Positions 1-55,809 of a stretch of DNA of 56,723 nucleotides are shown here, piece after piece (the stretch's first letter is position 1; each line of letters begins with the position of its first letter). This DNA is from Tubiluchus corallicola (Eukaryota > Animalia > Priapulida): NCBI GenBank assembly GCA_030141605.1, contig JAQGDQ010000860.1, positions 30,377 to 87,099 of the forward strand, in the 5' to 3' direction. A program made the position numbers and the translations under genes. The notes beneath the pieces were generated by a model that was not told the origin of the DNA, ran no database searches, and saw only the letters and a list, made by a program, of their open reading frames with translations.

Positions 1-1622
1 AACAGCTTATAATCCTCACATCCAAAACAGCTTATAATCCTCACATCCAAAATAGTTTATAATCCTCTCATCCAAAACAGTTTATAATCCTCACATCCAA
101 AACAGTTAATCCTCACATCCAAAACAGTTTATAATCCTCACGTCCAAAACAGCTTATAATCCTCACATCCAAAACAGCTTATAATCCTCACATCCAAAAT
201 AGTTTATAATCCTCTCATCCAAAACAGTTTATAATCCTCACATCCAAAACAGTTAATCCTCACATCCAAAACAGTTTATAATCCTCACGTCCAAAACAGT
301 TTATAATCCTCTCATCCAAAACAGTTTATAATCCTCTCATCCAAAACAGTTTATAATCCTGACATTCAAAACAGTTTGTAATCCTCACATCCAAAACAGT
401 TTATAATCCTCACATACAATACAGTTTATAATCCTCACATACAAAACAGTTTATAATCCTCACATCCAAAACAGTTTATAATCCTCACATCCAAAACAGT
501 TTATAATCCTCACATACAATACAGTTTATAATCCTCACATCCAAAACAGTTTATAATCCTCTCATCCAAAACAGTTTATAATCCTCACATCCAAAACAGT
601 TTATAATCCTCACATCCAAAACAGTTTGTAATCCTCTCATCCAAAACAGTTTATAATCCTCACATCCAAAACAGTTAATCCTCACATCCAAAACAGTTTA
701 TAATCCTCACGTCCAAAACAGCTTATAATCCTCACATCCAAAACAGCTTATAATCCTCACATCCAAAATAGTTTATAATCCTCTCATCCAAAACAGTTTA
801 TAATCCTCACATCCAAAACAGTTAATCCTCACATCCAAAACAGTTTATAATCCTCACGTCCAAAACAGCTTATAATCCTCACATCCAAAACAGCTTATAA
901 TCCTCACATCCAAAATAGTTTATAATCCTCTCATCCAAAACAGTTTATAATCCTCACATCCAAAACAGTTAATCCTCACATCCAAAACAGTTTATAATCC
1001 TCACGTCCAAAACAGTTTATAATCCTCTCATCCAAAACAGTTTATAATCCTCTCATCCAAAACAGTTTATAATCCTGACATTCAAAACAGTTTGTAATCC
1101 TCACATCCAAAACAGTTTATAATCCTCACATACAATACAGTTTATAATCCTCACATACAAAACAGTTTGTAATCCTCACATCCAAAACAGTTTATAATCC
1201 TCACATCCAAAACAGTTTATAATCCTCACATACAATACAGTTTATAATCCTCACATCCAAAACAGTTTATAATCCTCTCATCCAAAACAGTTTATAATCC
1301 TCACATCCAAAACAGTTTATAATCCTCACATACAATACAGTTTATAATCCTCACATCCAAAACAGTTTATAATCCTCTCATCCAAAACAGTTTATAATCC
1401 TCACATCCAAAACAGTTTATAATCCTCACATCCAAAACAGTTTGTAATCCTCACATACAATACAGTTTATAATCCTCACATCCAAAACAGCTAATCCTTA
1501 CATCCAAAACAGTTAATCCTTACATCCAAAACAGTTAATCCTTGCATCCATGACAGTTAATCCTTACATCCAAAACAGTTAATCCTTACATCCAAAACAG
1601 TTAATCTTAACATCTAAACAGT
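1..1622. repeat. 25-bp minisatellite (AACAGTTTATAATCCTCACATCCAA, with 22-bp variants), intronic in protease gene A
   Basis: Tandem units are directly visible. Higher-order periods are 147 bp (pos 1 vs 148) and 717 bp (variant GACATTC at 361 and 1078). The array ends about 30 bp before the acceptor at 1652. Confidence 0.95.
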
Positions 1623-1652: not shown

Positions 1653-4600
1653 ACATGCAAAGTGTACACAAAGTCAGTTTACAAAAGGCATCATTGCAAG
1701 TTCTTTCCTTTATGGACTGTGTTTCCCAGGATGCTTATGCTAGTGGGAGTACCAAAAACATGTCAGTCTGCATGTACAAGAACCTTGTCTCTGTTTGTAT
1801 AGTAAGTATTTCAATCATGCCATTGTTTTAAATGATGAATTCTTAATAACTTATTTAGGCAGTTTTGCTGCTTAATTTATTGTGTTCAAATTGTGCAAGA
1901 GTAAGAAAATTTTCTTATAATATGTCACTCAGTACCAAGCAAACTGGTGAGCTACCAGCGCAGGTCAGCGCCTCTGTGTTTAGACTTTATGCTGGGCTTC
2001 TTAAGTTACATTTGCATGATAATTCTGATGAACCTGTGCGATTGCGATACTCGACTCTCTCCACCTATCAGAGGCGGGCACCTTTATAGGGTGCAAAGTC
2101 AATTCTTCTTTAACGCTGATCTTTTATTTGTCTTTTCCAAGTTTAATGTCTTTATTTGTCTTTATCCTGTATTCCATGCATTCGTTCACTAGATTTCTTA
2201 TTTCTGGCAATCCTTCCTTTTCACTGTTCATTAATACATCTGAGTTCAAAATTTTTTCCATTCTCCATATCTATAACATCTAAGCGTATGTTCAGTAGTG
2301 TCATCATCTTCCTCACACACTGGGCATAATAACTGATCCTTAAACTCATTCTTGTAGTTCATTGGGATTGAGATACATGTGATTGAGGCCTCCTGTTGAG
2401 CAAATTGTGTTGTATTTTTGCATGGTGATTCTGTAAGGTACGACTCAGCAGGCGTCCTCAACAGCAGGCTCATCAGAATTACCATGCAAATATAGCTCAA
2501 ATAGCCCAACTGAAGGTTTAAACACAGGTGTGCTCTCCTCCACTTAATGACCTGCACTTAAATGTCTTACAGAATCAACTGTTTGTATTGTGTAAAAATG
2601 GCACAGTAAAAATGACACAGGAAAAAATGGCACAGTAAAAATGACAAAGGAAAAAATGGCACAGAAAAAATGGGCACAAACCGAGAAGTAGGCAAAAATG
2701 GCATGGGAATAATGCAATTGGAAAAAAATGGCACAGGTAAAAATGACAGTATTTTATTTACAGGGTGATTCCAGTGGACCCGTGTTGGACCATACAGGTT
2801 AAGTAATGACAGCATTTTATTTACAGGGTGATTCCAGTGGACCCGTGTTGGACCACACAGGTTAAGTAATGACAGCATTTTATTTACAGGGTGATTCCAG
2901 TGGACCAGTGTTGGACCACACAGGTTAAGTAATGACAGCATTTTATTTACAGGGTGATTCCAGTGGACCCGTGTTGGACCACACAGGTTAAGTAATGACA
3001 GCATTTTATTTACAAGGTGATTCTGGCGGACCCGTGTTGGACCACACAGGTTAAGTAATGACAGCATTTTATTTACAGGGCGATTCTGGTGGACCCGTGT
3101 TGGACCACACAGGTTAAGTAATGACAGCATTTTATTTACAGGGCGATTCTGGTGGACCCGTGTTGGACCACACAGGTTAAGTAATGACAGCATTTTATTT
3201 ACAGGGTGATTCCAGTGGACCCGTGTTGGACCATACAGGTTAGGTAATGACAGCATTTTATTTACAGGATGATTCCAGTGGACCCGTGTTGGACCATACA
3301 GGTTAAGTAATGTCAGCATTTTATTTACAGGGTGATTCTGGTGGACCCGTGTTGGACTCTACAGGTGAACTAATGACAGCATTTTATTTACAGGGTAATT
3401 CTGGTGGACCCGTATTGGACTCTACAGGTTAAGTAATGACAGCATTTTATTTACAGGGTGATTCTGATGGACCCGTGTTGGACCACACAGGTTAAGTAAT
3501 GACAGCATTTTATTTACAGAGTGATTCCAGTGGACCCGTGTTGGACCACACAGGTTAAGTAATGACAGCATTTTATTTACATGGTGATTCTGGTGGACCC
3601 GTGTTGGCCCATACAGGTTAAGAAATGACAGCATTTTATTTACAGGGTGATTCTGGTGGACCCGTGTTGGACCACACAGGTTAAGTAATGACAGCATTTT
3701 ATTTACAGGGTGATTCCAGTGGACCCGTGTTGGACCATACAGGTTAAGTAATGACAGCATTTTATTTACAGGGTGATTCCAGTGGACCCGTGTTGGACCA
3801 CACAGGTTAAGTAATGACAGCATTTTATTTACAGGGTGATTCCAGTGGACCAGTGTTGGACCACACAGGTTAAGTAATGACAGCATTTTATTTACAGGGT
3901 GATTCCAGTGGACCCGTGTTGGACCACACAGGTTAAGTAATGACAGCATTTTATTTACAAGGTGATTCTGGCGGACCCGTGTTGGACCACACAGGTTAAG
4001 TAATGACAGCATTTTATTTACAGGGCGATTCTGGTGGACCCGTGTTGGACCACACAGGTTAAGTAATGACAGCATTTTATTTACAGGGCGATTCTGGTGG
4101 ACCCGTGTTGGACCACACAGGTTAAGTAATGACAGCATTTTATTTACAGGGTGATTCCAGTGGACCCGTGTTGGACCATACAGGTTAGGTAATGACAGCA
4201 TTTTATTTACAGGATGATTCCAGTGGACCCGTGTTGGACCATACAGGTTAAGTAATGTCAGCATTTTATTTACAGGGTGATTCCAGTGGACCCGTGTTGG
4301 ACCACACAGGTTAAGTAATGACAGCATTTTATTTACAGGGTGATTCCAGTGGACCCGTGTTGGACCACACAGGTTAAGTAATGACAGCATTTTATTTACA
4401 GGGTGATTCTGATGGACCCGTGTTGGACCACACAGGTTAAGTAATGACAGCATTTTATTTACAGGGTGATTCTGGTGGACCCGTGTTGGACTCTACAGGT
4501 GAACTAATGACAGCATTTTATTTACAGGGTAATTCTGGTGGACCCGTATTGGACTCTACAGGTTAAGTAATGACAGCATTTTATTTACAGGGTGATTCTG

Positions 4601-5625
4601 ATGGACCCGTGTTGGACCACACAGGTTAAGTAATGACAGCATTTTATTTACAGAGTGATTCCAGTGGACCCGTGTTGGACCACACAGGTTAAGTAATGAC
4701 AGCATTTTATTTACATGGTGATTCTGGTGGACCCGTGTTGGCCCATACAGGTTAAGAAATGACAGCATTTTATTTACAGGGTGATTCTGGTGGACCCGTG
4801 TTGGACCACACAGGTTAAGTAATGACAGCATTTTATTTACAGGGTGATTCTGGTGGACCCATATTGGACTCTACAGGTTAAGTAATGACAGCATTTTATT
4901 TACAGGGTGATTCTGGTGGACCCGTGTTGGACCACACAGGTTAAGTAATGACAGCATTTTATTTACAGGGTGATTCTGGTGGACCCGTGTTGGCCCATAC
5001 AGGTTAAGAAATGACAGCATTTTATTTACAGGGTGATTCCAGTGGACCCGTGTTGGACTCTACAGGTTAAGTAATGACAGCATTTTATTTACAGGGCGAT
5101 TCTGGTGGACCCGTGTTGGACCACACAGGTTAAGTAATGACAGCATTTTATTTACAGGGTGATTCTGGTGGACCCGTGTTGGACTCCACAGGTGAACTAA
5201 TGACAGCATTTTATTTACAGGGTGATTCTGGTGGACCCGTGTTGGACTCTACAGGTGAACTAATGACAGCATTTTATCTACAGGGGGATTCTGGTGGACC
5301 CGTATTGGACTCTACAGGTTAAGTAATGACAGCGTTTTATTTACAGGGTGATTCTGGTGGACCCGTGTTGGACTCTACAGGTGAACAAATTGGAATAATC
5401 TCAATGGCGGGTATAGACTGTGCAAGCGTGAGCTTAGCTACAAGAGTTCCATTTTACTTGGATTGGATTGAAGATGAAGAGGCACATGGAGAAAGAGTAA
5501 TCAATCATTACAAACCTTTCAATCCATCTTCGCAAGGAGGAGCCACAGTTTACGATTTTTCGTTAAAAAATTATGCCACACTATTTACAATGCTGTTGTG
5601 TGGAGGACAGATCTTGACAATGTGA
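1653..5625 (+). CDS. Serine protease gene A (S1 family, chymotrypsin-like, 5'-partial): exons 1653-1801 and 5347-5625
   Basis: TTCTTAG|exon (..SLQKASLQVLSFMDC..MSVCMYKNLVSVCI)|GTAAGT joins in phase 0 to TTTATTTACAG|GDSGGPVLDSTGEQIGIISMAGIDCASVSLATRVPFYLDWI.. This ends in a hydrophobic tail and TGA, with AATAAA at ~5706. Intron phases match genes B and C. Confidence 0.9.
2250..2380 (-). mobile_element. Non-LTR retrotransposon 3' fragment
   Basis: Translation PMNYKNEFKDQLLCPVCEEDDDTTEHTLRC resembles the C-terminal CCHC region of LINE ORF2. Confidence 0.55.
2593..2745. repeat. Short degenerate array of AAAAATGGCACAG, probably a transposon-derived subterminal repeat
   Basis: The motif recurs about 8 times. 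A loosely similar array (AAA-TTGGTAC-AG) lies at ~39145-39400. Confidence 0.55.
2742..5385 (+). repeat. 63-bp tandem array (42 units) made of gene A's splice acceptor plus the first ~12 codons of its catalytic-Ser exon
   Basis: Unit GTAATGACAGCATTTTATTTACAG|GGTGATTC(T/C)(G/A)GTGGACCCGTGTTGGACCACACAGGTTAA. The first acceptor AG ends at 2763 and the last at 5346, a difference of 2583 = 41 x 63. Confidence 0.97.
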
Positions 5626-5804
5626 ATTATAGTGGAAACGAAAAATAATTATTGGACAGCCCTGAATACAAAGATCAAAATGAAATGTAAAAATAGTGAA
5701 ATAATAATAAAATGTTTAAGTTATCTAAAATGTAACACTATTTTATCTACTTGTTGTAACAAAATTAATCCAAAGGCTCTCACTCTTGTCTTGCCTCACG
5801 TGAA

Positions 5805-6497
5805 AGCCTGAATTCATCTTTCACCAGCTGGGCCCAAGCCTGGTTTCATCTTTCACCAGCCGGGCCCAAGCTTGAATTCATGTCTCAACAGCAGGGCCCA
5901 AGCCTGAATTCATCTTTCATCAGCCGTGCACAAGCCTGAATTCGTCTTTCATCAGCCGTGCACAAGCCTGAATTCGTCTTTCATCAGCCGTGCACAAGCC
6001 TGAATTCGTCTTTCATCAGCCGGGCCCAAGCCTGAATTCATCTTTCATCAGCCGTGCACAAGCCTGAATTCATCTTTCATCGGCTGTGCACAAGCCTGAA
6101 TTCATCTTTCATCAGCCGTGCATAAGCCTGAATTCGTCTTTCACCAGCCGTGCATAAGCCTGAATTCATCTTTCACCAGCCGGGTCCTAGCCTGAATTCA
6201 TCTTTCACCAGCCGTGCACAAGCCTGAATTCGTCTTTCATCAGCCGGGCTCAAGCCTGAATTCGTCTTTCAGCTGCTGGGCCAAAGTCTGAATTTATCTT
6301 TCACCAGCCGGGCTTAAGCTTGGATTCATCTTTCACCAGCCGGGCCCAAGCCTGGATTCATCTTTCACCAGCCGGGCCCAAGCCTGGATTCATCTTTCAC
6401 CATCTGGGCTTAAGCTTGGATTCATTTTTCACCAGCCAGGCTTAAGCTTGGATTCATCTTTCACCAGTCGGGCTTAAGCTTGGATTCATCTTTCAAC
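5805..6497. repeat. 32-bp minisatellite (AGCCTGAATTCATCTTTCATCAGCCGTGCACA), about 21 copies
   Basis: Period 32 (e.g. 5901, 5933). It lies immediately 3' of gene A. Confidence 0.93.
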
Positions 6498-8466
6498 AGT
6501 ATGGGCTCATCCAAGCGGATGTTCATGGTGACACTGTATGTGAACAGTTACCAAGACTATGTACTTCTAAAGTGAATCACTGAATCCACTGACGTCAAGC
6601 ATAACCTCAGTCATTCTCGTTGACTGCCCAATCAGCGTGCAAGATCTTTCACATCCCTACAAATTAACGCCGCGACTTTCCGGGACATTTAGCTGCGTTT
6701 TGACCACCATTATCGGAGGAAACATTGACCTGGTACCAGATTTTCTTATTGTCGACTGAAATTACAAGTGAATTAGTGTCAATACATAGTGTGGTTTCCT
6801 TTATTATAGGAACAAATACATAGAGCTCACGTCTCTAGGTGGCTGATTAAACCATTTTGCTACAGTAAAATAGTTTAGTTTAGCTTTGACTTTGCAAGTT
6901 GGGTCAATTATCAAAAACGACAAATTAACCTAACGAGGTTAGACTGGTCGTATTACGTTGCCTTTCAGTTCTTAAACTTCAAACGGTCTACCCGAACAGA
7001 ACTGAGAAGAAATTGATAACAACAGATAATGAAGCCCGCGTTTAGCAAGTATGAATGATTCAAGGTTAAACCTGCATGTAAAAATGGTTGCCTATGCACC
7101 TCTAAGCAAGTTTGCGCAGGTTGTAAGAAATAAGCTAGTCGGTCTTGGTCAACAATAGTCGAGATCTACCCCGGGAGTTGATGGGACGCATCCATGGGAG
7201 TCCGTGACAACTGGAATGATTATGAATAAGCAAGCGTATTCATAGAAACCCCCAAAATTAGGCTAAATGTCTTTAGAAATTTTTAAGCAAAACGTATTCA
7301 TTTCTGGCAAGTTTTTATAAACGTCAATGAGATCTTCACGGTTGAAATTAATTCAAATATTGTCGAAACTTACATTATATACAAACGTAATATTTATTAA
7401 TTTTACGCTGTTTTTCTAGTTATACTTACGGTTAAAAGATGCCATTGGTAAGACTACATCGCAGGCACGATAAATAATTATGTTCGTATGTTGAGAGGCA
7501 CATACTTTTTGCTCATTTATCATAAATCAAGGTTAAGTGGCTTCATTTCTTTACAATTATACTTATGTCTCTGCATTTTGTAGTACTTTGAAACTTGTGT
7601 TTAAATAGGCTATACATTGTGTTTAAATAGAAGACTCATTTTTGGCTGCTTGAAGGGTTAATTTCCTGCAAAAATAGCTGCAAAATCGTATGAAAAAGCG
7701 CAATCAGTTTATCTGCTGATTAGTTGTCTGCTGTCGTTTTCAAAAGACAGCTGTTCTCTTGTTCCGAATGATTCTAGGCGTGCTTACGTCACAGCGGAGG
7801 CGGAGTGCTAGACTTATATGCTTGATGTCAACAAGGTCGTCTTAGCTACACTTACACGTGAGTAGGGTTATTTCGCAATGTGATAAACAGCCTGAATCAG
7901 TACGACTAACAAAACCACTCAGAGCAACAACCGACAAGGGGTCACCCATTCGTTAAATACAATGCAAGGCAGACCAAACATCTTGTTCCTCTGTATCATT
8001 TGGTCATTTTGACAGGTTTCCATGTACCTTTAAAAATTTACAGTTTAATTGCACTGCTACATTGTACTATAAGATCGCGACCTCACTAACAAAGGGATAT
8101 TATACTCCATGACGCAGTCTTATATTTAAAGACCCTTCCACTTTCCTTCTTATTGCCTTGTGTTAAGCAACACTGCCATTTGTGACTAGGAAATGGTCCC
8201 TAAGCAGCAGTTACTGATTGAAATCATGGCTTTTAGTGAAGCAGAGCAGTTACCATCGTGGCGCTGAAAACGATCACAAATTTTTGCCTAAACAGCAGAT
8301 ATTTTTCATATCATTTATTAACAATTTACAATCCATACAGTTACAATTGCAATTATTAGTTACAAAACATTACATAAACAATGCAATACATTGCAATGAA
8401 GAAAAAACTACGTAGGCAAAACCCCTCACATGGGCTATAATCGTCATCAAAATACACAATAAAATG

Positions 8467-10067: not shown

Positions 10068-10945
10068 TTCATCTATCTAGAAACCGGCGCTAATGGGATT
10101 CCATTTGCTGACGATGTAATTGGGTTAAGGAAAAAAAAGGGGAAATGAAGTTTCCAGAATGTTTGCTATTCTGATGACTGCAATTGCCAGATGATACATT
10201 GTGGAGACAGAGCATCGTATTGCAGATCATATCCTGCCTCTTTATCCTGAGATTACCATGTCAGACAACGAGCTTCAGCTAAAGACTAAAAAGCAGAAGC
10301 TAATGAAAATGATGACTGGGAAAGATTCAGTAATCTTGACTTATATCATCTGTGACATAGACAGCTGGTGTAATTAGATAAGACGTGAGTCCACCCATCC
10401 GTTGCTCCAGACGATAGACCACCTATTTGGATTTCAAAATTTGTTTACAAGAGCCCATGAGTTCTTTGCTAACTTTGTCAAGTATCTCATAGATGGAAAT
10501 TATGATGTGCTTGATAAGAGGGGCCATGATTTTGACCCAGAAACCACTTTTAAGAAATTTAGAGGAGGATTTGAGGGACTTAAGCAGAAACCTTGGACTG
10601 TCCATACTGTCAATCTAATCAAGCAGGCAGTTAAGCAAACAGGGATTAAATTTTATATCCTCGATCAAGGTGACAATCAAGACCTTGTGCTCATCCATCA
10701 AGTCAGAGATAAAGAAGAAGACGGATCAATTCCTCCAGAGGAATGGAAAAGAGTTACAGAAGCAACTGAACTATTCCTCAAGTTAATTAAGAGAAAATTT
10801 GGAGAAGTAGGTTTGACTTTAAAGTTAGAAGAAACATTGGTTTCAGGAAAATTCTTAAACTATGGGAAAGACCTTTATTACAACGGACGGCAACTGTCCT
10901 TGAGTTTAAAGAGAGTTTGTAAAGGAGGAATTTTCCCATTTCACT
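10068..10945 (+). pseudogene. Endogenous viral element: RdRp core of a Mononegavirales/Jingchuvirales-like L protein, decayed
   Basis: Ordered L-protein motifs: NGIPFADDVIGLRKK, (frameshift ~10131-10152) SRMFAILM, ETEHRIADHILPLYPEITMSDNE, motif A CDIDSWCN, motif B GGFEGLKQKPWT, motif C QGDNQ, motif D GLTLKLEET..YGKDLYYNG..SLKR. In-frame stops at 10192-10194 (TGA) and 10375-10377 (TAG). Confidence 0.93.
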
Positions 10946-12018
10946 ATTCTCTCAATTTCCAGTGTTTCAAAATGTTAAAAAAACAAATTATATGGGTAAT
11001 TTGGTCATAACACTGTCTGACAGAAATGTTCTCATAGAAAGGCAAAATTTCGTTGCTTTCATTAGAAGAAGGAAATGTGCCTTTCAGGCAGAATTAAACG
11101 ATGCTAAAATAGAAATTTATCAATACGGTGCCGATGGTAACGCTAAAATAATCAAATTGAAACTGTAAGTAATCTGATTAACTCATGAATGCACGAAACC
11201 AATACTAAACTAGTAGACTGTGTCAAAAAACTGTAGTAATATTCCGTTTCTGTGACAGGAGATTCTTTAAATGACTGCTTTTCACTGGGATGTGTGCAAG
11301 CCTGATATACACCGGTGTGGAACGAACCTATCAAGTTTTTACATATTCAATTCAATTTGGCTTTATTTACACAATTACGTGCAATGTACATTGGCAAAGC
11401 AATATATTACACGTTAAATTCAACATAAACCGCAAAAATTACAGTAGGTTGTATGCAAAGTTATTTTTATAGACAAAAATTAATATTGAGATACGTTATA
11501 CTGATACAGAAATCACAGTTACATAAAAATTGTATAATTAGCAATGAAAAAGGAAAAATTTGTTAAAAGTAGTAGGTATCAGTACCAACTTTTTATATGA
11601 AAGATTATAAAAAAATAACAGAAAGAGAGTTGAAAATAATTGAGGTTAGAGTCTGCTGCCAAACTGCTGATTTCTTCTTCCCTAGAGACTGGAGTTGTTG
11701 CCAGAACTTTCTTGCATTGATGCCATAGATGTGTAAATTATAAGTTGTAATCAGAAAGGCTACAAAAGCAAATAAATGGCATGAAAAGCAAAGCCTGCAA
11801 AAAACAAAGAAACAGTATTAAAAACAATTAACAACTATACATTATGCAATGCAAAAGTATACCTAGATATTAAAAAGTCTCGATTCTTGAGTAGATCTTG
11901 TTGAACACCATCTGATTTTGCATTTTGTCACCGGAATACGTGAACAGCATCATGTCCTAAAATTGTGTTCTTGACTCAGAAAGCATACAGAACTTTATAG
12001 AATACAGTACTAAGGTAC

Positions 12019-12540: not shown

Positions 12541-12962
12541 TACAGTATATGTAACTTAATGTCACTATGTAATTTGTATACATGTGTGTAACAAATGATG
12601 CAGACTGATCGGTATAATGATTATGTGCAAAGCAGCCTTAAAAGCGTTGTACTTTAAATGGAGGTCTGAAAATGGTTTAAAATGTTCATAGCTATGTGGC
12701 GAGTACAAGACAATGAAAGACATAAATGCAAAATTGTATTAGAAACTTTTACATTATTAGGCATCCATATATATGTACTTGAAGACTTCTTTAACTCACA
12801 ACAGAAAAAAGTTAACATGACCATGGCACACAGTAGAAATTTTTGTGACTTTGAATTAAATTGCTGATATATAGTTATTTAAATAATCTACGTATATCTT
12901 CACATGCAATGAAGTGGCATAAACTTTCTAAGATTTTAACTCTTAAGAAGTCTTAAGTCTAA

Positions 12963-14423
12963 GAACTCATAGACTTCTTACGCAGGTTTAGTGATGTCAA
13001 CAGGTATGGAGCCAATGAAGAAGTCATAGACTTCTTACGCAGGTTTAGTGATGTCAACAGGTATGGAGCCAATGAAGAAGTCATAGACTTCTTACGCAGG
13101 TTTAGTGATGTCAACAGGTATGGAGCCAATGAAGAAGTCATAGACTTCTTATGCAGGTTTAGTGATGTCAACAGGTATGGAGCCAATGAAGAAGTCATAG
13201 ACTTCTTACGCAGGTTTAGTGATGTCAACAGGTATGGAGCCAATGAAGAAGTCATAGACTTCTTATGCAGGTTTAGTGATGTCAACAGGTATGGAGCCAA
13301 TGAAGAAGTCATAGACTTCTTACGCAGGTTTAGTGATGTCAACAGGTATGGAGCCAATGAAGAAGTCATAGACTTCTTACGCAGGTTTAGTGATGTCAAC
13401 AGGTATGGAGCCAATGAAGAAGTCATAGACTTTACGCAGGTTTAGTGATGTCAACAGGTATGGAGCCAATGAAGAAGTCATAGACTTCTTACGCAGGTTT
13501 AGTGATGTCAACAGGTATGGAGCCAATGAAGAAGTCATAGACTTCTTACGCAGGTTTAGTGATGTCAACAGGTATGGAGCCAATGAAGAAGTCATAGACT
13601 TCTTATGCAGGTTTAGTGATGTCAACAGGTATGGAGCCAATGAAGAAGTCATAGACTTCTTACGCAGGTTTAGTGATGTCAACAGGTATGGAGCCAATGA
13701 AGAAGACTTCTTACGCAGGTTTAGTGATGTCAACAGGTATGGAGCCAATGAAGAAGACTTCTTACGCAGGTTTAGTGATGTCAACAGGTATGGAGCCAAT
13801 GAAGAAGTCATAGACTTCTTATGCAGGTTTAGTGATGTCAACAGGTATGGAGCCAATGAAGAAGTCATAGACTTCTTACGCAGGTTTAGTGATGTCAACA
13901 GGTATGGAGCCAATGAAGAAGTCACAGACCTCTTACGCAGGTTTAGTGATGTCAACAGGTATGGAGCCAATGAAGAAGTCATAGACTTCTTATGCAGGTT
14001 TAGTGATGTCAACAGGTATGGAGCCAATGAAGAAGTCACAGACTTCTTACGCAGGTTTAGTGATGTCAACAGGTATGGAGCCAATGAAGAAGACTTCTTA
14101 CGCAGGTTTAGTGATGTCAACAGGTATGGAGCCAATGAAGAAGACTTCTTACGCAGGTTTAGTGATGTCAACAGGTATGGAGCCAATGAAGAAGACTTCT
14201 TACGCAGGTTTAGTGATGCCAACAGGTATGGAACCAATGAAGAAGTCATAGACCTCTTACGCAGGTTTAGTGATGTCAACAGGTATGGAGCCAATGAAGA
14301 AGTCATAGACTTCTTACGCAGGTTTAGTGATGTCAACAGGTATGGAACCAATGAAGAAGTCATAGACCTCTTACGCAGGTTTAGTGATGTCAACAGGTAT
14401 GGAGCCGATGAAGAAGTCATAGA
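12963..14423. repeat. 57-bp minisatellite, about 26 units (five 51-bp variants, one 55-bp variant)
   Basis: Unit GAAGTCATAGACTTCTTACGCAGGTTTAGTGATGTCAACAGGTATGGAGCCAATGAA. Confidence 0.95.
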
Positions 14424-19192: not shown

Positions 19193-20710
19193 TTATTTAG
19201 CGTGAAGTCTCAAATGTCTCTTTAGACTGCCTGCCTGAGTAAATGATGAACCACACTGACTGCAACAAAAAGGTTTTTCTCCGGTGTGAATTCTCAAATG
19301 TCTCTTCAAATCATTCGACCCACCAAACGTAGCACCACATTGACTACACTTAAATAGTTTTAATGGTTTCTCTCCAGTGTGAACTCGTGAATGCACTTTC
19401 AGAGTACCTGCTTGGGTAAACGCAGCATCACACAGACTACACTTGAATGGTTTTTCTCCAGTGTGAGTTCTTGAATGTGCTTTCAGATAGGCTGATTGAG
19501 AAAATGCGGCATCACATTGACTACATTTAAAAGGTTTTTCTCCCGTGTGAGTTCTTAAATGCCTTTTCAAATAGCTATGTTGAGTAAACGCAGCGTCACA
19601 ATGACTACACTTAAAAGATCTTTCTCCTGTACAAGCTCTTAAGTGTCTCTTCAGATGGCTGGCAGAAATAAAGGCAGCATTACATTGACTGCACTTGCAT
19701 GGTTTTTCACCAGTGTGGCTTCTGGAATGTACTATCAGAGAGCTTGACCCAGTAAATGCAGCACCACATTGACTACACAAAAAAGGTTTCTCTCCAGTGT
19801 GAATTCTTGAATGTACTTTTAGATAACTTGACGTTGTAAATGCGGCACCACACTGAACACACTTAAATGGTTTTTCTCCAGTGTGAACTCTCATATGTAC
19901 TTTCAGATGACTTGACGTAGTGAATGCGGCATCGCAATGACTACATCTAAAAGGTTTTTCTCCAGAATGTATTTTCAAATGCCATTTCAAACCATGCTTA
20001 CTTGCTAATACAGCACCGCATTGCTCACATATGAAAGACATTTTTTTTGCTTTGCTCAGAAGATGTGTTTTTGGTGGTTCGTGGGTAGAAGCAGCTACAT
20101 TTTCATTGTGTCTAGCAGCTAAATCAGACTGAAGATTGAATGATGGTGACTCTTTTCTTGTATGATTTACAGTTGTTTGAAGTTTGTCATGTGTGAATCT
20201 AGAATCTTCATTCAAACAATTATCTGCTGTAGTCACTTTGACACTGCAATCACTTTTCACATGTAAAGGGTTATGTCTGTCACTCACATGTGATATTTTA
20301 CGGATGTCCTTGTTTTCCATCACATTACCTGCAAGGCCATCATGTCCGGTTTTTATAAGCATTTCACACATTTGGAAATCACAATCTGCTGTTTTGTATT
20401 TGCTGTTGTTTTCTGCATTAACTGCTTCAACATCGCTTTCTGTTTTTGCTTGAACTTTGTCAATTTGCACATCATCATCATCTATTGCTTCAACATCACT
20501 TTCTGTTTTTGCTTGAACTTTGTCAATTTGCACATCATCATCATCTATTGCTTCAACATCACTTTCTGTTTTTACTTCAGCATTGTCAATTTGCACATCA
20601 TCATCATCATCATCATCATCTATTGTTTCATCATTAATGCAATTCCTCATGGAATCATATGAATGACCAAGTTCAGTTTTTACTTCAGCAGGAATTACAG
20701 CTCGATCCAT
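19193..20710 (-). CDS. C2H2 zinc-finger protein, 505 aa: acidic N-terminus with three 21-aa repeats, then 10 tandem fingers
   Basis: Single long ORF with CxxC..HxxxH fingers and TGEKPF linkers; finger 5 ends HLRAC. A likely 5'UTR intron runs from donor GAG|GTAATT at 21416 to acceptor TTCTTACAG at 20741. Confidence 0.93.
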   Translation of the reverse strand: MDRAVIPAEVKTELGHSYDSMRNCINDETIDDDDDDDDVQIDNAEVKTESDVEAIDDDDVQIDKVQAKTESDVEAIDDDDVQIDKVQAKTESDVEAVNAENNSKYKTADCDFQMCEMLIKTGHDGLAGNVMENKDIRKISHVSDRHNPLHVKSDCSVKVTTADNCLNEDSRFTHDKLQTTVNHTRKESPSFNLQSDLAARHNENVAASTHEPPKTHLLSKAKKMSFICEQCGAVLASKHGLKWHLKIHSGEKPFRCSHCDAAFTTSSHLKVHMRVHTGEKPFKCVQCGAAFTTSSYLKVHSRIHTGEKPFLCSQCGAAFTGSSSLIVHSRSHTGEKPCKCSQCNAAFISASHLKRHLRACTGERSFKCSHCDAAFTQHSYLKRHLRTHTGEKPFKCSQCDAAFSQSAYLKAHSRTHTGEKPFKCSLCDAAFTQAGTLKVHSRVHTGEKPLKLFKCSQCGATFGGSNDLKRHLRIHTGEKPFCCSQCGSSFTQAGSLKRHLRLHAK

Positions 20711-20949
20711 TTTTGATGAAAAAAACTTCGAAGTTTATTTCTGTAAGAAAAAATTAATCAAATTATTTTCAAATAAAGCAAGTCACTTGAATCACATGAT
20801 GTCGACTGCATTATAAATGAAATAATAATTAGGTATGATTTTGCAAGCGTCTTCTCTAGACTGTACATGTTTCTATTGTAAATGACTTTTGTGGTTTCTT
20901 TTAATACTTTATGTGTGCCATGTAATTCTGAATTCATGAGCTGAAAGAT

Positions 20950-25016: not shown

Positions 25017-27190
25017 TCAGGCCGTATTTTGATAATTTCACATCCTTTTGCGGCGACCTTCACAGCTCGCATATGCTTTACCTAATCTTACTGACTGCAC
25101 ACAGTAATTTCTCCTTAACTTTAAATTAATGCGAACACAAGATTCTTTTTTTGGAAAAGTGGTCGTCTGATCTTCAGACAATTGTCTTTGAATCAACCAA
25201 GCAGCAGAGTTGTGTATTAGAAACGCACTAGGAACTTTTCATTTTAATTCTGTGCCATTTTTATCTACATTCTTTGTTGTATTGGTGAGTCCAACAAAAC
25301 CCGTGTTTAATGTATAAAAAATATGTTGTGCAGCAAGTAATAATTAACAGAAACGTTTGAACAATATAACGCCAACCTTGAAAATTACAAAAAATGTTTG
25401 TGTCGCGTTAAGTAGCGCGTGATATCAGCGCAAACACATGCATGTTAAGTTGCAGAGGTGACCGACATACTAAATCAGAAGCCAGTGCCAATTTTCACTA
25501 GTAACATGATAACAAATTTTATAATGTATAAGTATAGTACTTATATATTGCCACCAAGTCACAACGTATTTTAGCTATGAGGCCCCTATGTCATGAGACC
25601 CCGCCACAACTGCGCAGCATGTCCATGCGTAAACTTGGCATTGGTTTTTAATACCTAGTTATATCGCTGCTCCTTTTTGCAAACGACTTATTAATTAATT
25701 GATTAATTAATTGATTGATTCATTCACAGGTTTAAAGACAATTAATTGTGTAACTGAGTAATTGCCCGATTCTGAGAGCTTAGGTCAGATCGATAGGGCG
25801 ATGTGAGAAATATGCGTTGTGAGAATAGATCTTTATCTCTCGAGTTATCAAGCTGGCTTCCGCAACAAGCCTTTCAGTGTGAATATACCAGGTTCGTATA
25901 AGCAGATAGTGTCTTTAAAGAGAATGTTCTTTAACTACTTCTAGTATAGCAAAGCAATTCAACAATCATTAACAGTGATGAAAGTTTTATGATAACAAGT
26001 TCCAAAGATTAATCAAGACTAAGATTTCACTTTTACAAATATTTAACTTATGCGCTTGAGGGCGCTTACAACTAGAAGCGGAATATTACAAACAATATAC
26101 CGATCAACACTTATTTATTAAACTGCTCTGCTCGCACTTCTTGTGCACAAATTACAAATTATTACATGCGAGTATAACCGTTACAGTAACTAAAATAATC
26201 ATAAAGTCACTTAACTTGTGGCCTGGCCAACCTAACAACTGTAATTGGCCAGTTCCAGACTCCTAATCGAGATTCTTAGCATCAGAGGTTTGATACACAA
26301 ACGACGTAGAATTGCGTGATTGCACCAGTCCTTCCAGGCAGATCAAACTTTTTCCCACCTCCTGCTGCTAATGTAATAGTCACGTAGGGTTCATTTGCAC
26401 AGTCAACATGTGGTGCTTTTGTCTCATCTCACTGACTGAAAAAATTAGCTGATAACATTTGTGCTCTTAAGTAAATTGCAGATTTTTGTACAAAAGTTTA
26501 AACGGCAAAAAAGTGACATCACAAAGTATTTTGAGGGAAATGAATTTTACAAATTATCTCAGGAATGCATGAACTTAATTTATTTTTGTTTTTGTTGTTA
26601 CTGTTTTCTCATATTACTGCACTATTCATGGAGAATTTTGCAAATCATCCTGGAATTAATTTCTTTCTCATTGAAAAGGTTTCCCATTTCACCTTAGCTT
26701 TAAGCCTTCAATGCACCTGGCGAATTACTAGCTTTCAAGAAAACTTTTAGTCAGCATTAATTTTACTAACCGGAAGTGGTGCTGATAAACCAATGCCTAG
26801 CATTACCAGTTTTTTTGCTCGCTTATTGCTGTCTTTACTTATCTTGAGGGCTGTTTGTTTTAGAATTCTACAGTTGAGGTAATGCCATCATTACGATGAA
26901 CATACCAATGATGTGGTTTGAAACACGTGCAATTGAAATAGATATACTGAGTAGTGAGCACATTTGATGTTTTGCAGACAACAGATGATGCCATTCTACA
27001 TGCCTGTTGTTAAATATGTTAATTATCGTACATTCTTTCTAAAATGTTGAAAATAAGACGTACCTGAACAGAAAATATGGAAGACAAACAATTTAGATAT
27101 GAGTAACAGGACGTCTATATTAGTAAACTAGAAATAATTAATGAATTTAAGCTATAATGAGCCCTTTATGGGTTATTCTATCAAGCACTT

Positions 27191-30100
27191 TCAAAATACA
27201 ATATTCTGTAACATGTAATTAATTATGTAGATAATCAGTGTTGCTTCGTAAACAGAGGCTGTCGCAGCTACAGGTTTTGCGAATGGAAACGGGTTTTCCA
27301 TGATGACGTCAGGTGAAATGGGACAATACAGTGACACCACAAGAGTAATCCACTCCCAATAATAGGCAACTCTTATTGCCACATTAACAGAAGTTTCATC
27401 GACGCCAACCAGCCCATCTTCGACATACTGAGTTGTTGTGATAAAAATTCCAATCACTTCGCCTGTCTTGTCTAAAATCCAAGGTCCACCTGAATCACCC
27501 TGAAAACAAATCTTACGATTGGACATCTGTCAATTTAGAGAAAAATCATGAACATTAAGGGACATAGCTACAGTTATTAAAGATTTTAATCAGCTCGTGC
27601 CACAGAATCAACTAATCAAATTAGTTTTTTATCAGGAAAAAAATATTACGGTTACTGAATGGAAAAATATAACAAGATGAAGAAATTTCTGATTATATTT
27701 CTTACCTAAACAAAGCAGATTAATGTAATTTAATTTATGGTTATTTGAAATATCGCTGTATCTCGGTGATAACAATAGTAAGAATAGAGGCCACATTTTA
27801 TATTGTGAAATTAGGTGGAATACAAGTAATTGACAAAATTTTTACTAACATCTTCCACTACGACCTATAGCACTGTATACGTACGTGCACAGTCAAAATA
27901 AAATAAATACAGTTAGTAGATAGCAGATCGCAATATTACAACCTCGCTTCAAAACTACAAAAAAAAAACGTGTACACAGCCACAAACGGCCATACACATT
28001 AAAAAACCAGTTGATTAAATTATGTCACTATCTAACTAAAACGCAAAATTCAAAGATTTCAATGCTTCATCAGTTAGGGTGAAGCATTAAATAATCATAA
28101 TAGCATTTATTCAACCCATTAAGCTTTTATCGCTGACTGTAAACAGGAAACTAAAACTACATAACTGAGATTATTTTTACCTCACTTCTTCCCTAAGTAC
28201 CAGGCAGGGCAACAGCTCGTACCAATTCAAAATTCTTCCAAATAACTTCTCAAACTGAAGACGTAAGCATTACAGCTAGACTAATATTGATTCAAATACT
28301 TCAATAATGAAGCTTTGAAATTTTTGAATTTTTAAAACTTATTATCAGTTTTACATACGAATGCACCATAGTGTCCATAATGATATGCACAGACATGAAA
28401 TTTCAGGTTTTCTTCCGCGCAATGACCTGCATCAGTAACTGTGAAAGACACTTTCTTCAAGACATCATAAAATTCTTCTTGTGATGCCGAATCTGAAATG
28501 CTAAATCTGTTGAGTGATAAAAAACGGCGTCTGTTTCTTAAAGCCCCCTAAACTTAGGAATTGTTTGGCATGTGCACTTACATTGGATTAAGAACTGAGC
28601 AGTCGATGACAAAGATCCCTACCTGAATACAGAAGCGCTACTGAAAGTAATTACATTGCCCTCGATTCTCATGAATGTATTTATAGTTGTGCTACAGGAC
28701 AGCAGGAGGCGCTAAATTTCGAAGGAAGCCAGATTATCAGGCGATAGCTAAAAATATTTTCTTCTATTATCTGGGGAAATAGTGTACGCAAATATCATTT
28801 CATATTCATATAAGAAACACTTTCTAAAACCTGCCGCCCGCATTTAAGTGCCAGATAACTACAATTATTACATGAAAAGTACATCACAAACAGTTGCACA
28901 GCCTGGTTAAATACAAGTGCTATGCCAATGTAAATACCAAAGACCACGCACTACTATGTAATAGTACTATTAATACACCTTAAATAACTGATTATTGCTC
29001 TTAATATACATACATGTAGTATGAAGTATCAGCCTAAGGCGTTCATTAAGGATGTTTTTTTAATTTTGAGTATTTTTGCTTAGCAATTTCTGTAATGTGA
29101 CGTTGTGCTATTGAAGTAAATCACCTTTCACAGGCTAAAATGCCTACATTTTATGTGCTTGTATTTGTCTAATAAATTCGGGAGAAAAATTGCCAAATTT
29201 TGGCGATTTTATGAATCAAATTTGTGCAGCAGACTGTGCAGGGCGAATTCAAAAATGAAGTAGACGACTGTACAATTGTTTGGTACACTTTCTTCATAAT
29301 TATTATTATTATTAACAAATTGATTTATTAGTTTACAATGCATATCTTGCGATTTCAGTTACAAATTTAAAAAGAAATTGAACAAAATCAACAACTACAT
29401 TTTTTTGTCTGGTTTGACATAAGATCTTTTACTTGTATAAAACTCTCATCCCACCTGTTATATCAGGTCCCCATCCTAGAAGAGTAACTTCATCATTTAT
29501 GTAAGTAAAGTTGTTACACATTGGTAGTTCGGCAGGTTTAATATCATCAGAAAATTCAACATGTTTGTTTAATCGAGCAACAGCGATGTCGTGGAGATAC
29601 CAAGGATCACCTTTCATGTTAAAATCTTGATGACGAAAATACCATGCAATCTAGAATAAAAATATTGAAATTAAAGTAAACTCACTCACCTTTTATAACA
29701 TCTGACACAGAACAAAATCTATTCCAACATGCAAAATTTTGAGCTCTGGCCTAGAAAATGGGATATTCAATTAGTTCATTTGAGGGGCTGAGTATCAGTC
29801 AAAACTTTACTGTTCAAATGAAGGTATAATAGTCAGGGCCTATTTCAGGGGAGGAAAGTGGGGATACTTCCCCGGGGCCTCACCCTCTAGGGGGGCCTCG
29901 TGCCGAGGTAACATTTTTTTCGGTGAACGCTCTTTCAGTGCGTTTAAAAATATCAAAACCGACAATTGTTCGACGACGACCCAGGATCGGTTAAACGATC
30001 TGTCAATTATTCGAATGAATGTGGATGTAGCAAGAGGCTTTGATTCTAACGAGTTAATTGATAAATTTGCGAAACAAAAAGTCAGAAGATGGCTTGTACG

Positions 30101-33100
30101 GAAGTGAGAGTACAGTATTACATATTGCAAAGATGTTGTTTTTTATTTTACTATTTGACAAGTATTAAGGACTGGTCTTGAGAATAAAGCAGTTTTTCTT
30201 TCAATTGTTCTTTCCTTTAACAACTGTATAACTCCATATTTTCTCTTCGAAAATGCTTCTCCGGATTTCTAGCAGTTTCTAAGGCTGAAATAGGCCCTGA
30301 TAATAGTACACTTAATCAAGTAAGTGTCTAGCGTTCTGCTACATCAGAAGTTGAAATGTTCTAAGTGCTTTATGGAGGGAATATTATAAATAAAAAAATT
30401 AATTGACAAAATCTGGCTAAACAACGGCTATTGACTCTTCTTCTTTTTTCCTTGCGTATTTCACCAATAATTCAAAACAAATGTCGCAACATGTATCTGT
30501 CTTAAAGGAAATAATAATAAATTTTCACACTTCACACTGCTAAGTACAGAATCAAAATTCATCTTTAACAACAAAAGAGCATACCATAGTTGTCAGAAAA
30601 GTGAAGTGGTTACAAAAGCCTTGCATACGCCTACTCTTATGATAAGATCACAAAAATACAGTTGCATAGAATATACAAGAAAATATAGCCTACCCAGCGG
30701 TCTGCCTTTGTGTCAAATATTTTGTTGCTCCCAAGAAATACTTTCATGTGTCTTCCAGGTGGCGCGCTACAAAATAAACGCATCTAGTTTCTTATTAATG
30801 ACATTTTACATTGCAGTTTTGATACCCTGATACAAAAGCAATAGAGGAATAATATAACAAAACATAAGTTTATTACAGCACTCCTTTCAGCACATATCTC
30901 AGGTCACACGACGCACACCATATTTTTTAAGTTGTTAGTGGTATTAAAGAAAGAATACATTAATTTTTAATTTTTAAAATGCAGTTATGTATCAGACTGA
31001 AGAGTAAAAGTCCGCTTCATGTAACAATTTAATTATTATTCGTTTAAGTCTTTGTCCTGGTTTCAGGTTTATTTTTTTTGTTTTAAGCTCAATTGATGAC
31101 TGGTACACAGGTATGAAAAGTGTTTGACATAAAGAAATAATAATATTGGCACACATTACAATTATCACACATTTGAATAAAAACAACAACAATAATACTT
31201 ACTCATGTAAACAGTGTGCTGATGTTAATATGTATAGGTCATCGATTAATGTACCTCCACAAATCGAATAGCCAAAACCAAAACCAACCTGTATGCCAAC
31301 CTTTAGAAAAACAGTGTGGGATATAAATCACGCACTTTGCTTAGTGCATACGTCTGCACTCATGCACGCACGCACGCACACATAATAAAAATTGAAACAA
31401 AGAAACAATGGACAAGGAATACTATGATAAAGTGTGAAATAACAGAATAAATCCGAATTACATATATTTTCTAAAGATTTAAGCTTCAATCATAGAAAAT
31501 CGTGTCACGGCAGGAAACAAAACATACCATGAATGGATATTCCCTCCCAATCACATCCCGTCCACCACTGATCCTCGGATTAGCGGGCAATTCTGTAATA
31601 GGTTAACAGCTAAGGTCATTTAGATACAGACCATAGATGATTGATTAAAACTAGTTTGGTAACGAGCAAGTCTTGAAGCAAGCCTCTTAACGGCTGCTCA
31701 GGTCAGAACTGTGCTTTTTGAATATCTCATGTCCAGCTTGTAGTGTGTCTAACGAATTATCTTCAAATAATTAAAACATCGTTTATCATCTACACTGGGA
31801 TGTTAGATTATGATGTTATGAACAGATTTTCTTTTATTCTGCAACTCCACCTGATCAATTCCCTGGATAAAGAGATCTGATAACTTACTGTTTTGCTACT
31901 TTAACAAACCCTTTTGTTATTAAATTAATCTTGCATTTTGTGTGTTTCGTGAAAGTTTTCTTTTTTGTCATATTCAATATATTACAGTCGACTAATATGA
32001 CATGATTTAATGTAAAGTTGACCTTTGTGTTTGTTTAGGAATTTTGATGGTATTAAAATTCATTTGATTAATAATACATGAAAATGTTCAATAAATTATT
32101 TATTATTAATTATTTATTAATAATAATAAAATAATAATAAACAGCAAATATATATCATACTTCAGTGTTGGGAATAAACTGATGCTGTCAAGTGCTGCCA
32201 CCTTTTAGGCCTTTAGGCCTTGAATGACTTTCTATCTTTAAATTTGTTAGACTGTAATTATATACTTAGGGGATTCAATCTGGTTTTATGCAGATGTCAG
32301 TAGGACAGTAGACTGTTACACTGTCTAGGTGTTCGCTGTCTGTTTATACTTAATTTTGCCGAATTCAGTGATTTGGTAAATGCTTGTGACCTGTTTCTGC
32401 ACTTCTCTGATGCCTTTAAGTTGAAATGCCAGGGCTGGCCAATATACGTAAGTTAAATATGATTATTTTTCTGTGATTTAAAAGAGTTTAAATTCTATTT
32501 CATGTAACACAGTTTACTACTTTACAATTGTTGTAATTTGTAAAACTTGTGTAATTCATACCTAAAAAATTTAATATCTTGATTTAGTTCCTATTTTATA
32601 ACAATCTTCTATAATCATCTGAATTTGAAAAATGCTTTTATTTTATTTTCTCACAATAAATAATCATTAGCAAGCCAAAGCGGAATTTGAAGTTTTGTTT
32701 TGGGACATTCAGTCAGCTACATTCAGTGTGAACTTTATGTAAGACAGAGAGTGTCATATCGTTAACTGTTTTGTAGTATTTATGTTTATATGTAATTAGC
32801 ATAAAAAATTGTTCATATTCATTTACATTCATATTACATCATTCTCATAAATATTTTCATATTTTACCAATGTGAAAGTTAAAACTGTAAATACAAAAGA
32901 GTAAAAGAAACTTAACTACAGTATGATTTTTCACTATATTCACATCCTATTACGAGTACAAGGTTAGACAACTAAGAATAAATAAAAGTTTTTTAAGTGG
33001 TTCAGGTAGGAATCCACCTCTGCAATGCCTACAAGGACCAAGCAATAGCTTAGCAATCATTTTTCAACTTGCTTTAGATTCCATCATCTGTAATTTTACC

Positions 33101-33373
33101 ATTTCTACATCTTATCATCTACACTTTTCACAATTTGTAATAGAATTGCATGTTTTGATAACACTGTTATAATGCTGTAGTGCTGTTCTATTGTTTAGAC
33201 TAAAGATTAGACATTGGTTAGGAATGTTTTTAAAACTAAAGTATTCATACCTCTAAACGAAACTAACCTTTTTCAAAGAAACCACTGGATGTAGAAGACA
33301 GAGACTTTGTAAACAGGCATGTGTTAAAGCAAATCCATATTGTAAGCACTCTCAAAAATGTAACTAGATTCAT
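27191..33373 (-). CDS. Serine protease gene B (S1 family, ~326 aa, intact triad, signal peptide, hydrophobic C-tail): exons 33373-33268, 31592-31528, 31300-31203, 30766-30694, 29650-29455, 28492-28359, 27499-27191
   Basis: All junctions are GT-AG and frame-consistent (total 981 nt): MNLVTFLRVLTIWICF.. / PR-ISGG..YPFM / ICGGTLIDDLYILTSAHC / KVFLGS / LHDIAVARL..LLGWG / LKKVSF..HVCAY / GDSGGP..RVAYYWEWI. Confidence 0.92.
29834..30299 (+). mobile_element. Internally deleted hAT DNA transposon in intron 4 of gene B
   Basis: TIRs CAGGGCCTATTTCAG/CTGAAATAGGCCCTG with a perfect 8-bp TSD ATAATAGT. The internal remnant ERSFSAFKNIKT..QDRLNDLS..IDKFAKQKVRR (~29925-30090) matches the hAT C-terminal dimerisation domain. 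Confidence 0.92.
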
Positions 33374-34856
33374 TTGGGCTCAAAGCAAAAAAGACATTAA
33401 TGACAATGTCGCTGGCACATCAATGATGGGAGTTTTAATACTGAATAATGGTCAGCTATAAAATGTTTCTCCTGCAAAACATGACTGGTTGCAGCTTATA
33501 CTGGAAATTATTCATCATTAAAGTTTATGCACCATAATTAACATGCACATATACTATGTGGTTCTCACGAAAATGTGGTGCCAGAATTAGTGAAATAGAA
33601 CAATTGTTCCAGAATTTGAAATTGCTCTACACTCGAGATTTTTCAAACACAATTGCTCTAAACTGATGACAATGAGGAAAATAAATGAATGTAAGAAGGA
33701 ACAAAAACTGAACTAACAGTAGGGAAAAATGCAACACATATATGACAATAACTAGACACAGATCATAATCTGGCGTAAACTACATTCCAAACTAATTATG
33801 GCGTGCACTTTTCAAAATAACTGAAGTTCCTTTGATACAACAATTAACAGTTTAAAATTACCTTAATTTTCAAAATACATCCAGAATAAAATCAACTTAT
33901 CTTTAATGTCACCATCTTAGAAGCAACAGAAGGTACGAGGTACCTTATAGGTCATTGTCATTGCTTTTCTTTTTTTCTCTCTATTTATGTTCACAGCTAC
34001 AGTGGCAAAATTACCAAAAGAATCAGCTGGTAACTTTTCTACTCTTTAGTAATTTTTATGAGAAAATTTAAATTGTAAAATGTGTGCTTTATCAATTGTT
34101 AACAAGAGCAAAAATACCACCAAATACAAGTACTCTGAAGGTAATGAATCTTACAGCTGACCCCAAGTATGCCTGTCTTTAATGTAATTTTGATCTTGTC
34201 GCTCATGTTTTCTCATAAAGGTCGTGTAAACTTTTGTAAGACATCCTGGGTTTAGTTTGTTTCTTTCTGGAAGTTTTCTCGGGCACATTTACTCTAAGCC
34301 ATCAATGTATTTGATAATGATAATGTAGCAGCCTTTAATGCACCTTTCAATTGCTTACTATAAATGGGAACTTGAGTAGAAGAGCCACTTCCATAGCAAT
34401 TTTTGGTTTTTTGAGATGGAATACTGCTCGCTTTACTAATCTTGAGCACTGATATTTTTTATAATTTTATTATTGAGATAATGGGCATGATTATGATGAT
34501 GGTAATGTTGATGTTGTTGAAGATATTAGCTAATAAGGTCTAGAAATTGTGAGTGAAAAATTGTGCATTTGAAATAAATAAAATGAGCACATTAAAATTT
34601 TATATTTTATTGTGATATGCTAAAGCATAGAAGTAAATGTTGGAAATAAGACAAAACTTCACAATTTTTTTCATATTGAAGAAAAATAATTTAAAAGCGA
34701 GTAACAGGATTTATTTAAAAATGTGTATTTAAAAATTGAAAGAATTTTAATATAAACTCATATTTTGTTACATCAGTGTGTATTATGTAACCATTTCGTA
34801 GCAAGTTTCATCAAAGATTTTTTACATATAAGTAATAATCAGCATTTTTTCTTATT

Positions 34857-45276
<10,420 letters not shown>

Positions 45277-53491: not shown

Positions 53492-55809
<2,318 letters not shown>

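What the first reader, a model, noticed from the sequence alone, without database searches (positions are those of the whole stretch)
2742..5385. 42 tandem copies of a splice acceptor plus catalytic-serine exon start inside a protease gene
Seen: after the donor at 1802 the spliceosome meets 41 near-identical copies of TTTTATTTACAG|GGT GAT TCY.. before the real terminal exon at 5347. Almost all copies read GDS(G/S/D)GPVLD(H/S)TG followed by an in-frame TAA. The four GGTGAACTA read-through variants (~3361, 4496, 5188, 5251) also reach a TAA downstream. Only the last acceptor therefore gives a full protein. Each unit also ends in a donor-like CAG|GTTAAG, 34 nt after its acceptor. Known: proximal 3' splice sites usually win, and truncation just after Ser195 removes the 214-226 region and the C-terminal tail. 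Inference: the array either silences or tunes the gene in a copy-number-dependent way (decoy acceptors, truncation), or it is removed by an unusual route such as terminal-exon definition or stepwise/recursive splicing.
Basis: partly seen in the sequence, partly recalled or inferred. Interest (0 to 1): 0.85.

Follow-up and report, generated by a model that had tools for sequence, protein, structure and literature searches.

The report
Splice-acceptor "mirage" minisatellite in protease gene
A 63-base repeat has copied the end of the last intron and the start of the catalytic exon of an animal trypsin-like gene 41 extra times; this is a repeat type already described in lancelets ("mirages"), and it is likely tolerated because splicing would use the last, true copy, which is untested here.

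Summary
The array is real in the sequence: 42 units of exactly 63 bp (23 intron + 40 exon bases), with exon starts at 2764+63k up to 5347. 38 of 42 keep the AG, and all 41 extra copies run into a stop. The gene model is sound: paralogues B and C in the window have the same intron before GD(S/A)GGP, each with one acceptor. This is a 'mirage' minisatellite, a tandem duplication of an intron/exon boundary, described in amphioxus as not disturbing splicing. Human CBS 844ins68 also uses the distal duplicated site. The scan has reported the same class on other animal genomes. The copies show no sign of selection. The 'donor-like' sites lack the +5 G found in 12 of 12 real donors here (40 of 42 copies), and long-period arrays fill 18.5% of the window. 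Best reading: a neutral by-product skipped by terminal-exon definition to the last acceptor (about 0.6). Partial silencing by decoy use remains open (about 0.2). No transcript evidence could be obtained. Known kind, large example, low interest.

The parts
1653..1801 (+). Penultimate coding exon of trypsin-like gene A (149 nt, ends ...VCI, phase 0); donor GTAAGT at 1802
   Evidence: Open frame; same phase and position as the penultimate exons of paralogues B and C; its cysteines align with an unnamed relative P0125
2594..2745 (+). Short degenerate 14-bp repeat whose last copy forms the 5' end of the first 63-bp unit; likely supplied the microhomology for the founding duplication
   Evidence: TRF 2594-2678, period 14; sequence; AAAT matches in register with the exon at the far end of the array
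2741..5323 (+). 41 extra 63-bp units (intron end + first 40 exon bases); 37 keep AG; 37 carry an in-frame stop at codon 13; 8-unit block repeated at lag 15 and 5-unit block at lag 18
5324..5346 (+). Intron part of the 42nd unit: the authentic acceptor. It alone has G at -13 (A in all 41 others), so it is excluded from homogenisation
5347..5625 (+). Coding part of the terminal exon: GDSGGP catalytic-serine motif, rest of the trypsin domain, short hydrophobic tail, stop TGA
   Evidence: Pfam PF00089 E 1.7e-06; 41% identical to each paralogue's last exon; 53% over 55 aa to P0125
5706..5711 (+). AATAAA, the only one between the donor and 7000; 359 nt after the last acceptor
27100..31592 (-). Paralogue C (six exons traced), single acceptor before GDSGGP at 27499; used as control for the gene model and splice-site make-up
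34860..41246 (-). Paralogue B (five exons traced), single acceptor before GDAGGP at 35186; used as control

Best explanation
This is a 63-bp minisatellite made of 42 head-to-tail copies of the last intron/exon boundary of a trypsin-like protease gene, likely a neutral by-product of local duplication that splicing would mostly skip by joining the 1802 donor to the last acceptor at 5347. Shown: unit anatomy, copy order, stops, conserved intron position, weak internal donors, single poly(A) signal. Inferred: a short repeat next to the acceptor offered a microhomology 63 bp from a similar exon stretch; slippage or unequal exchange made the first copy; later unequal exchange multiplied blocks of 5-8 units while the end copy stayed apart. 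Inferred for splicing: the intron is long (962 nt to the first copy, 3545 nt to the last), so sites are chosen across the exon. The copies have no usable donor behind them, and the last acceptor is the nearest to the poly(A) signal and the only one followed by the full exon. Occasional use of a decoy would give a truncated, inactive product from an mRNA with an early stop.
For: [quoted passage not shown] CBS 844ins68 duplicates an intron/exon junction and the distal site is strongly favoured (PMC2630376 passage). Here: 12 of 12 correctly registered real donors have +5 G and +3 purine, against +5 G in 2 of 42 unit sites. One AATAAA, 359 nt from the last acceptor. The terminal copy keeps the family state D-S/K-T-G-E shared with B and C while most copies do not. 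Both visible exons are open and keep four cysteines shared with relative P0125. Copies look neutral: 8 synonymous to 10 non-synonymous alleles, P 0.09-0.16 for excess synonymy; intron part 6 of 23 versus exon part 18 of 40 variable columns, P 0.18; 2 AG-breaking alleles against 0.83 expected. Eight long-period arrays cover 18.5% of the window, with a rough chance of 0.14 that one spans one of 15 acceptors.
Against: The 37 decoy acceptors are as strong as the true one by sequence, and predicted RNA structure does not single out the last one: unpaired probability 0.007 against a mean of 0.022 for the others. In human data competing acceptors still show an overall upstream preference, only reduced under exon definition, and that study concerns internal exons (PMC9225289 passages). 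The nearest decoys lie only 63-440 nt further from the poly(A) signal, so terminal-exon definition need not be exclusive. Published mirages have far fewer acceptor copies (6 and 3 units in BflGb6). The 5' half of gene A lies outside the window, so its integrity is unknown.
Confidence: 0.62

Rival explanations
1. The array is neutral in origin but damages the gene: upstream copies capture most splicing, giving products cut 9 residues after the catalytic serine, so this allele is a hypomorph or a young pseudogene buffered by paralogues.
For: 37 intact AG acceptors with the same T-tract lie upstream. Upstream acceptors are often preferred. Gene A carries three separate minisatellites (1-1602, 2742-5373, 5804-6499) and sits in a cluster with three other trypsin-like genes.
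Against: Both visible exons are intact with motif and cysteines kept, although the array has built up 26 derived alleles. Precedents report normal mRNA.
Confidence: 0.2
2. The array is a selected dosage dial: copy number sets the share of transcripts lost to decoy acceptors, and the stop at codon 13 was favoured because it turns in-frame 21-residue insertions into harmless truncations.
For: The founder-like unit reads through in frame (63 nt = 21 codons). 37 of 41 copies carry the stop, including the copy right before the true exon. Most copies keep the AG.
Against: A stop among the 8 common alleles is expected by chance at P about 0.23, and among all 26 at 0.57; AG retention is no better than neutral. 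No published acceptor-array dial turned up in my searches.
Confidence: 0.07
3. Stepwise removal or intron gain: the first acceptor is used with the unit's CAG|GT as donor, and the array is cut out to the CAG|GT at 5381 (the Rogers-type model drawn for mirages), giving a full-length protein with two substitutions; or the array is removed by recursive steps.
For: The two-step product is in frame and full length. The model is proposed for mirages in PMC3087553.
Against: The internal GT sites lack +5 G in 40 of 42 copies, against 12 of 12 real donors that have it. The 5381 site has 5 T in the 12 bases before its CAG, the low end of the 15 real acceptors (5-9), and a stronger acceptor lies 34 nt upstream. 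The product would change a glycine of GDSGG. True acceptors are AG|GG, not the AG|GT of recursive sites (recalled rule).
Confidence: 0.05
4. The array or its length is an assembly artefact.
For: An identical 8-unit block recurs at lag 15 and a 5-unit block at lag 18; a mis-join could add such blocks.
Against: 23 distinct unit types, no indels, 17 of 26 alleles are transitions, and G/C columns vary more than A/T columns (14 of 29 versus 10 of 34): the pattern of real mutation, not read error. At worst the count is inflated.
Confidence: 0.05

Closest known systems
Amphioxus 'mirage' minisatellites (globins BflGb6 and BflGb9, Adh3, troponin C, PGBD5); PMC3087553 and PMC3902484, passages read
   Same: Tandem repeats whose unit spans an intron/exon boundary; BflGb6 has the same polarity (intron 3' end + exon 5' part); unit length within the 10-160 bp range given; many but not all units keep the splice signal; block-wise turnover with the end unit excluded.
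   Different: Other animal (not identified here); 42 copies against 3-6 in BflGb6; the exon is the terminal one and carries the catalytic serine; normal splicing and length instability were shown there and are untested here.
Human CBS c.844_845ins68; PMC2630376, passage read (it writes 'donor'; the title of its reference on the mechanism says 3' splice site)
   Same: Duplication of an intron/exon junction at an exon start; the distal site is strongly favoured and normal mRNA is made.
   Different: One extra copy, not 41; internal exon with its own donor.
Human F7 intron 7 37-bp VNTR; PMC1557585, abstract read
   Same: Minisatellite spanning an exon/intron boundary whose extra splice sites are functional but normally silent; the site next to the exon is used.
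   Different: Donor-type array; selection by 5'-to-3' scanning, which for an acceptor array would favour the first copy instead.

Membership tests
Mirage minisatellite | Head-to-tail tandem repeat of minisatellite unit size | tested here: met
   63 bp x 42, 94% matches, no indels
Mirage minisatellite | Unit spans a real intron/exon boundary of the host gene | tested here: met
   23 intron + 40 exon bases; same intron position in paralogues B and C
Mirage minisatellite | Many but not all units keep the splice signal | tested here: met
   38 of 42 keep AG
Mirage minisatellite | Tandem-repeat turnover with the boundary unit excluded | tested here: met
   Blocks at lags 15 and 18; terminal copy differs from the majority unit at 6 of 63 bases and alone has G at -13
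Mirage minisatellite | Regular mRNA splicing is kept | not testable with these tools
   No RNA holder listed
Mirage minisatellite | Length varies between alleles or cells | not testable with these tools
   No genome held; no DNA run listed (an RNA-kind search)
Recursive splicing site array | Acceptor directly followed by a donor (AG|GT) behind a pyrimidine tract (definition recalled) | tested here: not met
   Acceptors read AG|GG; the AG|GT at +34 has no T-tract of the real acceptors' type and lacks +5 G in 40 of 42 copies
Tandem alternative (mutually exclusive or micro-) exon array | Each copy is a frame-keeping exon with a usable donor and signs of coding constraint | tested here: not met
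   34-nt unit exon shifts the frame and stops; 29-nt gaps; no significant excess of synonymous change
Trypsin family S1 (PF00089), host gene A | GDSGGP motif and C-terminal domain segment | tested here: met
   28.4 bits against cut-off 20.6
Trypsin family S1 (PF00089), host gene A | Catalytic His and Asp, signal peptide, activation site | not testable with these tools
   These exons lie before base 1 of the window; no genome held

The most novel reading that the evidence does not exclude
The array is a copy-number dial on a secreted or surface protease: dozens of equal acceptors compete with the true one for the poly(A)-linked terminal-exon complex, and a single stop mutation swept through 37 of 41 copies because it converts in-frame 21-residue active-site insertions into disposable truncations. 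Because the copies carry private marker bases, it would also be a natural 42-way test of how a last exon's acceptor is chosen.
Probability: 0.07. Interest if true: 0.65.

Novelty: new member of a known kind. Interest (0 to 1): 0.2.

Why it matters
As an ordinary mirage it adds one more animal example, and a large one, to a class that appears widespread, and it warns gene predictors that the first acceptor is probably the wrong one. Its one useful trait is that it sits on a terminal exon with 37 equal competing acceptors that differ by marker bases, so one cDNA experiment would measure how strictly terminal-exon definition picks the nearest acceptor. Only if copy number set the amount of protease would it be a new regulatory device, and nothing here points to that.

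Tried and rejected
Transcripts: no RNA holder listed for 5340-5803; the one run listed (same species label, share 0.00) laid no contig on 1610-2590 or on 25100-37650 with the paralogue exons. This is no evidence on expression. Genome-wide count of such arrays and the 5' half of gene A: no genome held. Homologue search with the last exon, longer proteins: 0 of 95 candidates passed. Zinc-finger search to place the organism: only generic hits, 120 listed; the organism is not identified by my calls (earlier scan notes suggest a priapulid, untested). Profile search with three last exons: 10 hits; the best (P0121) and P0125 are unnamed proteins from short contigs, and 3 of the 5 looked up are rotifer or beetle proteases. 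RNA structure as the means of hiding decoys: rejected, the last acceptor is no more open than the rest. Selection for the stop, for keeping or losing AG, or for coding constraint in the copies: none significant; these tests are weak because copies share ancestry and alleles are few. One donor row (gene D, 53559) was off by one base and was dropped before the 12 of 12 count; in correct register it also has +5 G. The original Adh mirage paper is not held; I know it only through the two papers that cite it. Searches for a published copy-number dial made of acceptors showed none in their listings; subscription papers and supplements were not seen. Look-ups of the scan's notes near this place and by sequence returned nothing.

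Full report
Observation. Tandem Repeats Finder reports a 63-bp array at 2742-5373 (41.8 copies, 94% matches, no indels). In register there are 42 units, each 23 intron bases plus 40 exon bases, with exon starts at 2764+63k up to 5347 (the pattern found 40 of them and missed two variants). 38 of 42 keep AG. Translation from each start stops after 12 residues in 37 copies, 33 in three and 54 in one; only 5347 gives 92 residues. The 42 units fall into 23 types, with an identical 8-unit block at lag 15 and a 5-unit block at lag 18.

Host gene. The last exon matches Pfam Trypsin positions 178-220; the 49-residue penultimate exon alone matched no family. The window holds three more trypsin-like genes. 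Tracing B (five exons) and C (six exons) on the minus strand gives open frames, and both have a phase-0 intron directly before GD(S/A)GGP with a single acceptor. So the intron is ancestral and the array is specific to gene A. Gene A's two visible exons keep the catalytic motif and four cysteines that align with an unnamed relative, P0125, which has the same CIGDSGGP stretch. The terminal copy keeps the family's D-S/K-T-G-E, whereas most extra copies read H-T-G-stop. The 5' half of the gene is outside the window and no genome is held.

Origin (inferred). The first unit begins inside the last copy of a degenerate 14-bp repeat. In register at 42 x 63 bases, that intron stretch and the exon share AAAT at the unit boundary, with ACAGGT close by at an offset of two. 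This fits a slippage or unequal-exchange duplication seeded by microhomology and then expanded in blocks. The locus is prone to this: eight long-period arrays cover 18.5% of the window, three of them in or beside gene A, and a rough uniform model gives a 0.14 chance that one spans one of the 15 traced acceptors. Over a genome such cases would be expected many times.

Selection. Against the terminal copy there are 26 derived alleles, 17 of them transitions. In codons 1-13, 8 are synonymous and 10 are not (P 0.09-0.16 for excess synonymy). The intron part is no better kept than the exon part (6 of 23 versus 18 of 40 variable columns, P 0.18), and two alleles break the AG against 0.83 expected. 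The founder-like unit would read through in frame as 21 codons, and a stop now sits in 37 of 41 copies, but a stop among the 8 common alleles has a chance of about 0.23. None of this shows function. The tests are weak.

Splicing (inferred, untested). The first decoy is 962 nt from the donor and the true acceptor 3545 nt. A human genome-wide study finds that with long introns the sites closest across the exon are preferred, but for acceptors it reports an overall upstream preference that is only reduced (PMC9225289, passages). Terminal exons are defined together with 3'-end formation (PMC3737548, start of abstract in a search listing). Here the only AATAAA lies 359 nt after the last acceptor. 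The copies cannot easily be internal exons: 12 of 12 real donors in the window have +3 purine and +5 G (one mis-registered row dropped), while the unit sites have +5 G in 2 of 42 and +3 T in 37 of 42; the gap to the next acceptor is 29 nt; and a 34-nt unit exon joined to 5347 stops at once. Predicted RNA structure does not favour the last acceptor. A two-step route through the internal CAG|GT sites is in frame but needs two weak sites. I therefore favour direct joining to 5347, with some leak to nearby copies possible. No transcript data bear on it (see Tried and rejected).

What is known. [quoted passage not shown] BflGb6 repeats the intron 3' end plus the exon 5' part; units run 10-160 bp across the genes described; many but not all keep splice signals; Adh3 data and RT-PCR suggest normal splicing; end units escape homogenisation (PMC3087553, passages). 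PGBD5, Adh and troponin C are described alike (PMC3902484, passage). A search for mirage + minisatellite + splice listed 3 papers. In human CBS a 68-bp duplication of an intron/exon junction is skipped by use of the distal site (PMC2630376, passage), and in F7 a donor-spanning VNTR leaves its extra sites silent (PMC1557585, abstract). The name 'mirage' and the first two papers came to me from earlier scan notes, of which 8 of 27 matching were shown, all on other animal genomes; I checked the papers myself but not those notes' RNA claims.

Verdict. The array meets the four mirage features that can be tested from sequence; normal splicing and length variation are untested. It is a new, large member of a known kind, on a terminal exon. 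Best explanation 0.62; damage to the allele 0.2; selected dial 0.07; two-step removal 0.05; artefact 0.05. Interest 0.2.

Noticed in passing
window 10378-11007 (+): Open stretch matching Mononegavirales RNA-dependent RNA polymerase (PF00946, E 3.3e-40): a likely endogenous viral fragment, broken at both sides.
   Followed up: partly
window 12961-14423: 57-bp x 26 array whose unit holds an acceptor-like site, 18 bases and a donor-like CAG|GTATGG, with long open frames on both strands. No host gene found; only spurious Pfam matches.
   Followed up: partly
window 27100-41246 (-) and 53492-55809 (+): Cluster of three more divergent trypsin-like genes. B has Ala in place of the catalytic Ser; B and C lack the cysteine pair around the active site that A keeps; C and D lack the usual IVGG start; A, B and C end in a hydrophobic tail. 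D lacks one intron that B and C have.
   Followed up: partly
window 47438-48508: 79-bp x 13.5 array with a consensus donor AAG|GTAAGT in each unit; no exon identified in front of it.
   Followed up: partly
window 1-1602 and 5804-6499: Two further minisatellites at gene A: 25 bp x 65+ ending 50 nt before the 1653 acceptor, and 32 bp x 22 just after the poly(A) signal.
   Followed up: no
window 19196-20734 (-): Long open frame with about ten C2H2 zinc fingers and an acidic 63-bp repeat near its start.
   Followed up: partly
window 48736-50691 (+): Decayed reverse-transcriptase (PF00078, E 5e-08) and nearby retroelement-like fragments.
   Followed up: no
window 55045-55502: Degenerate 6-bp repeat resembling a telomere-like sequence inside an intron of gene D.
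   Followed up: no
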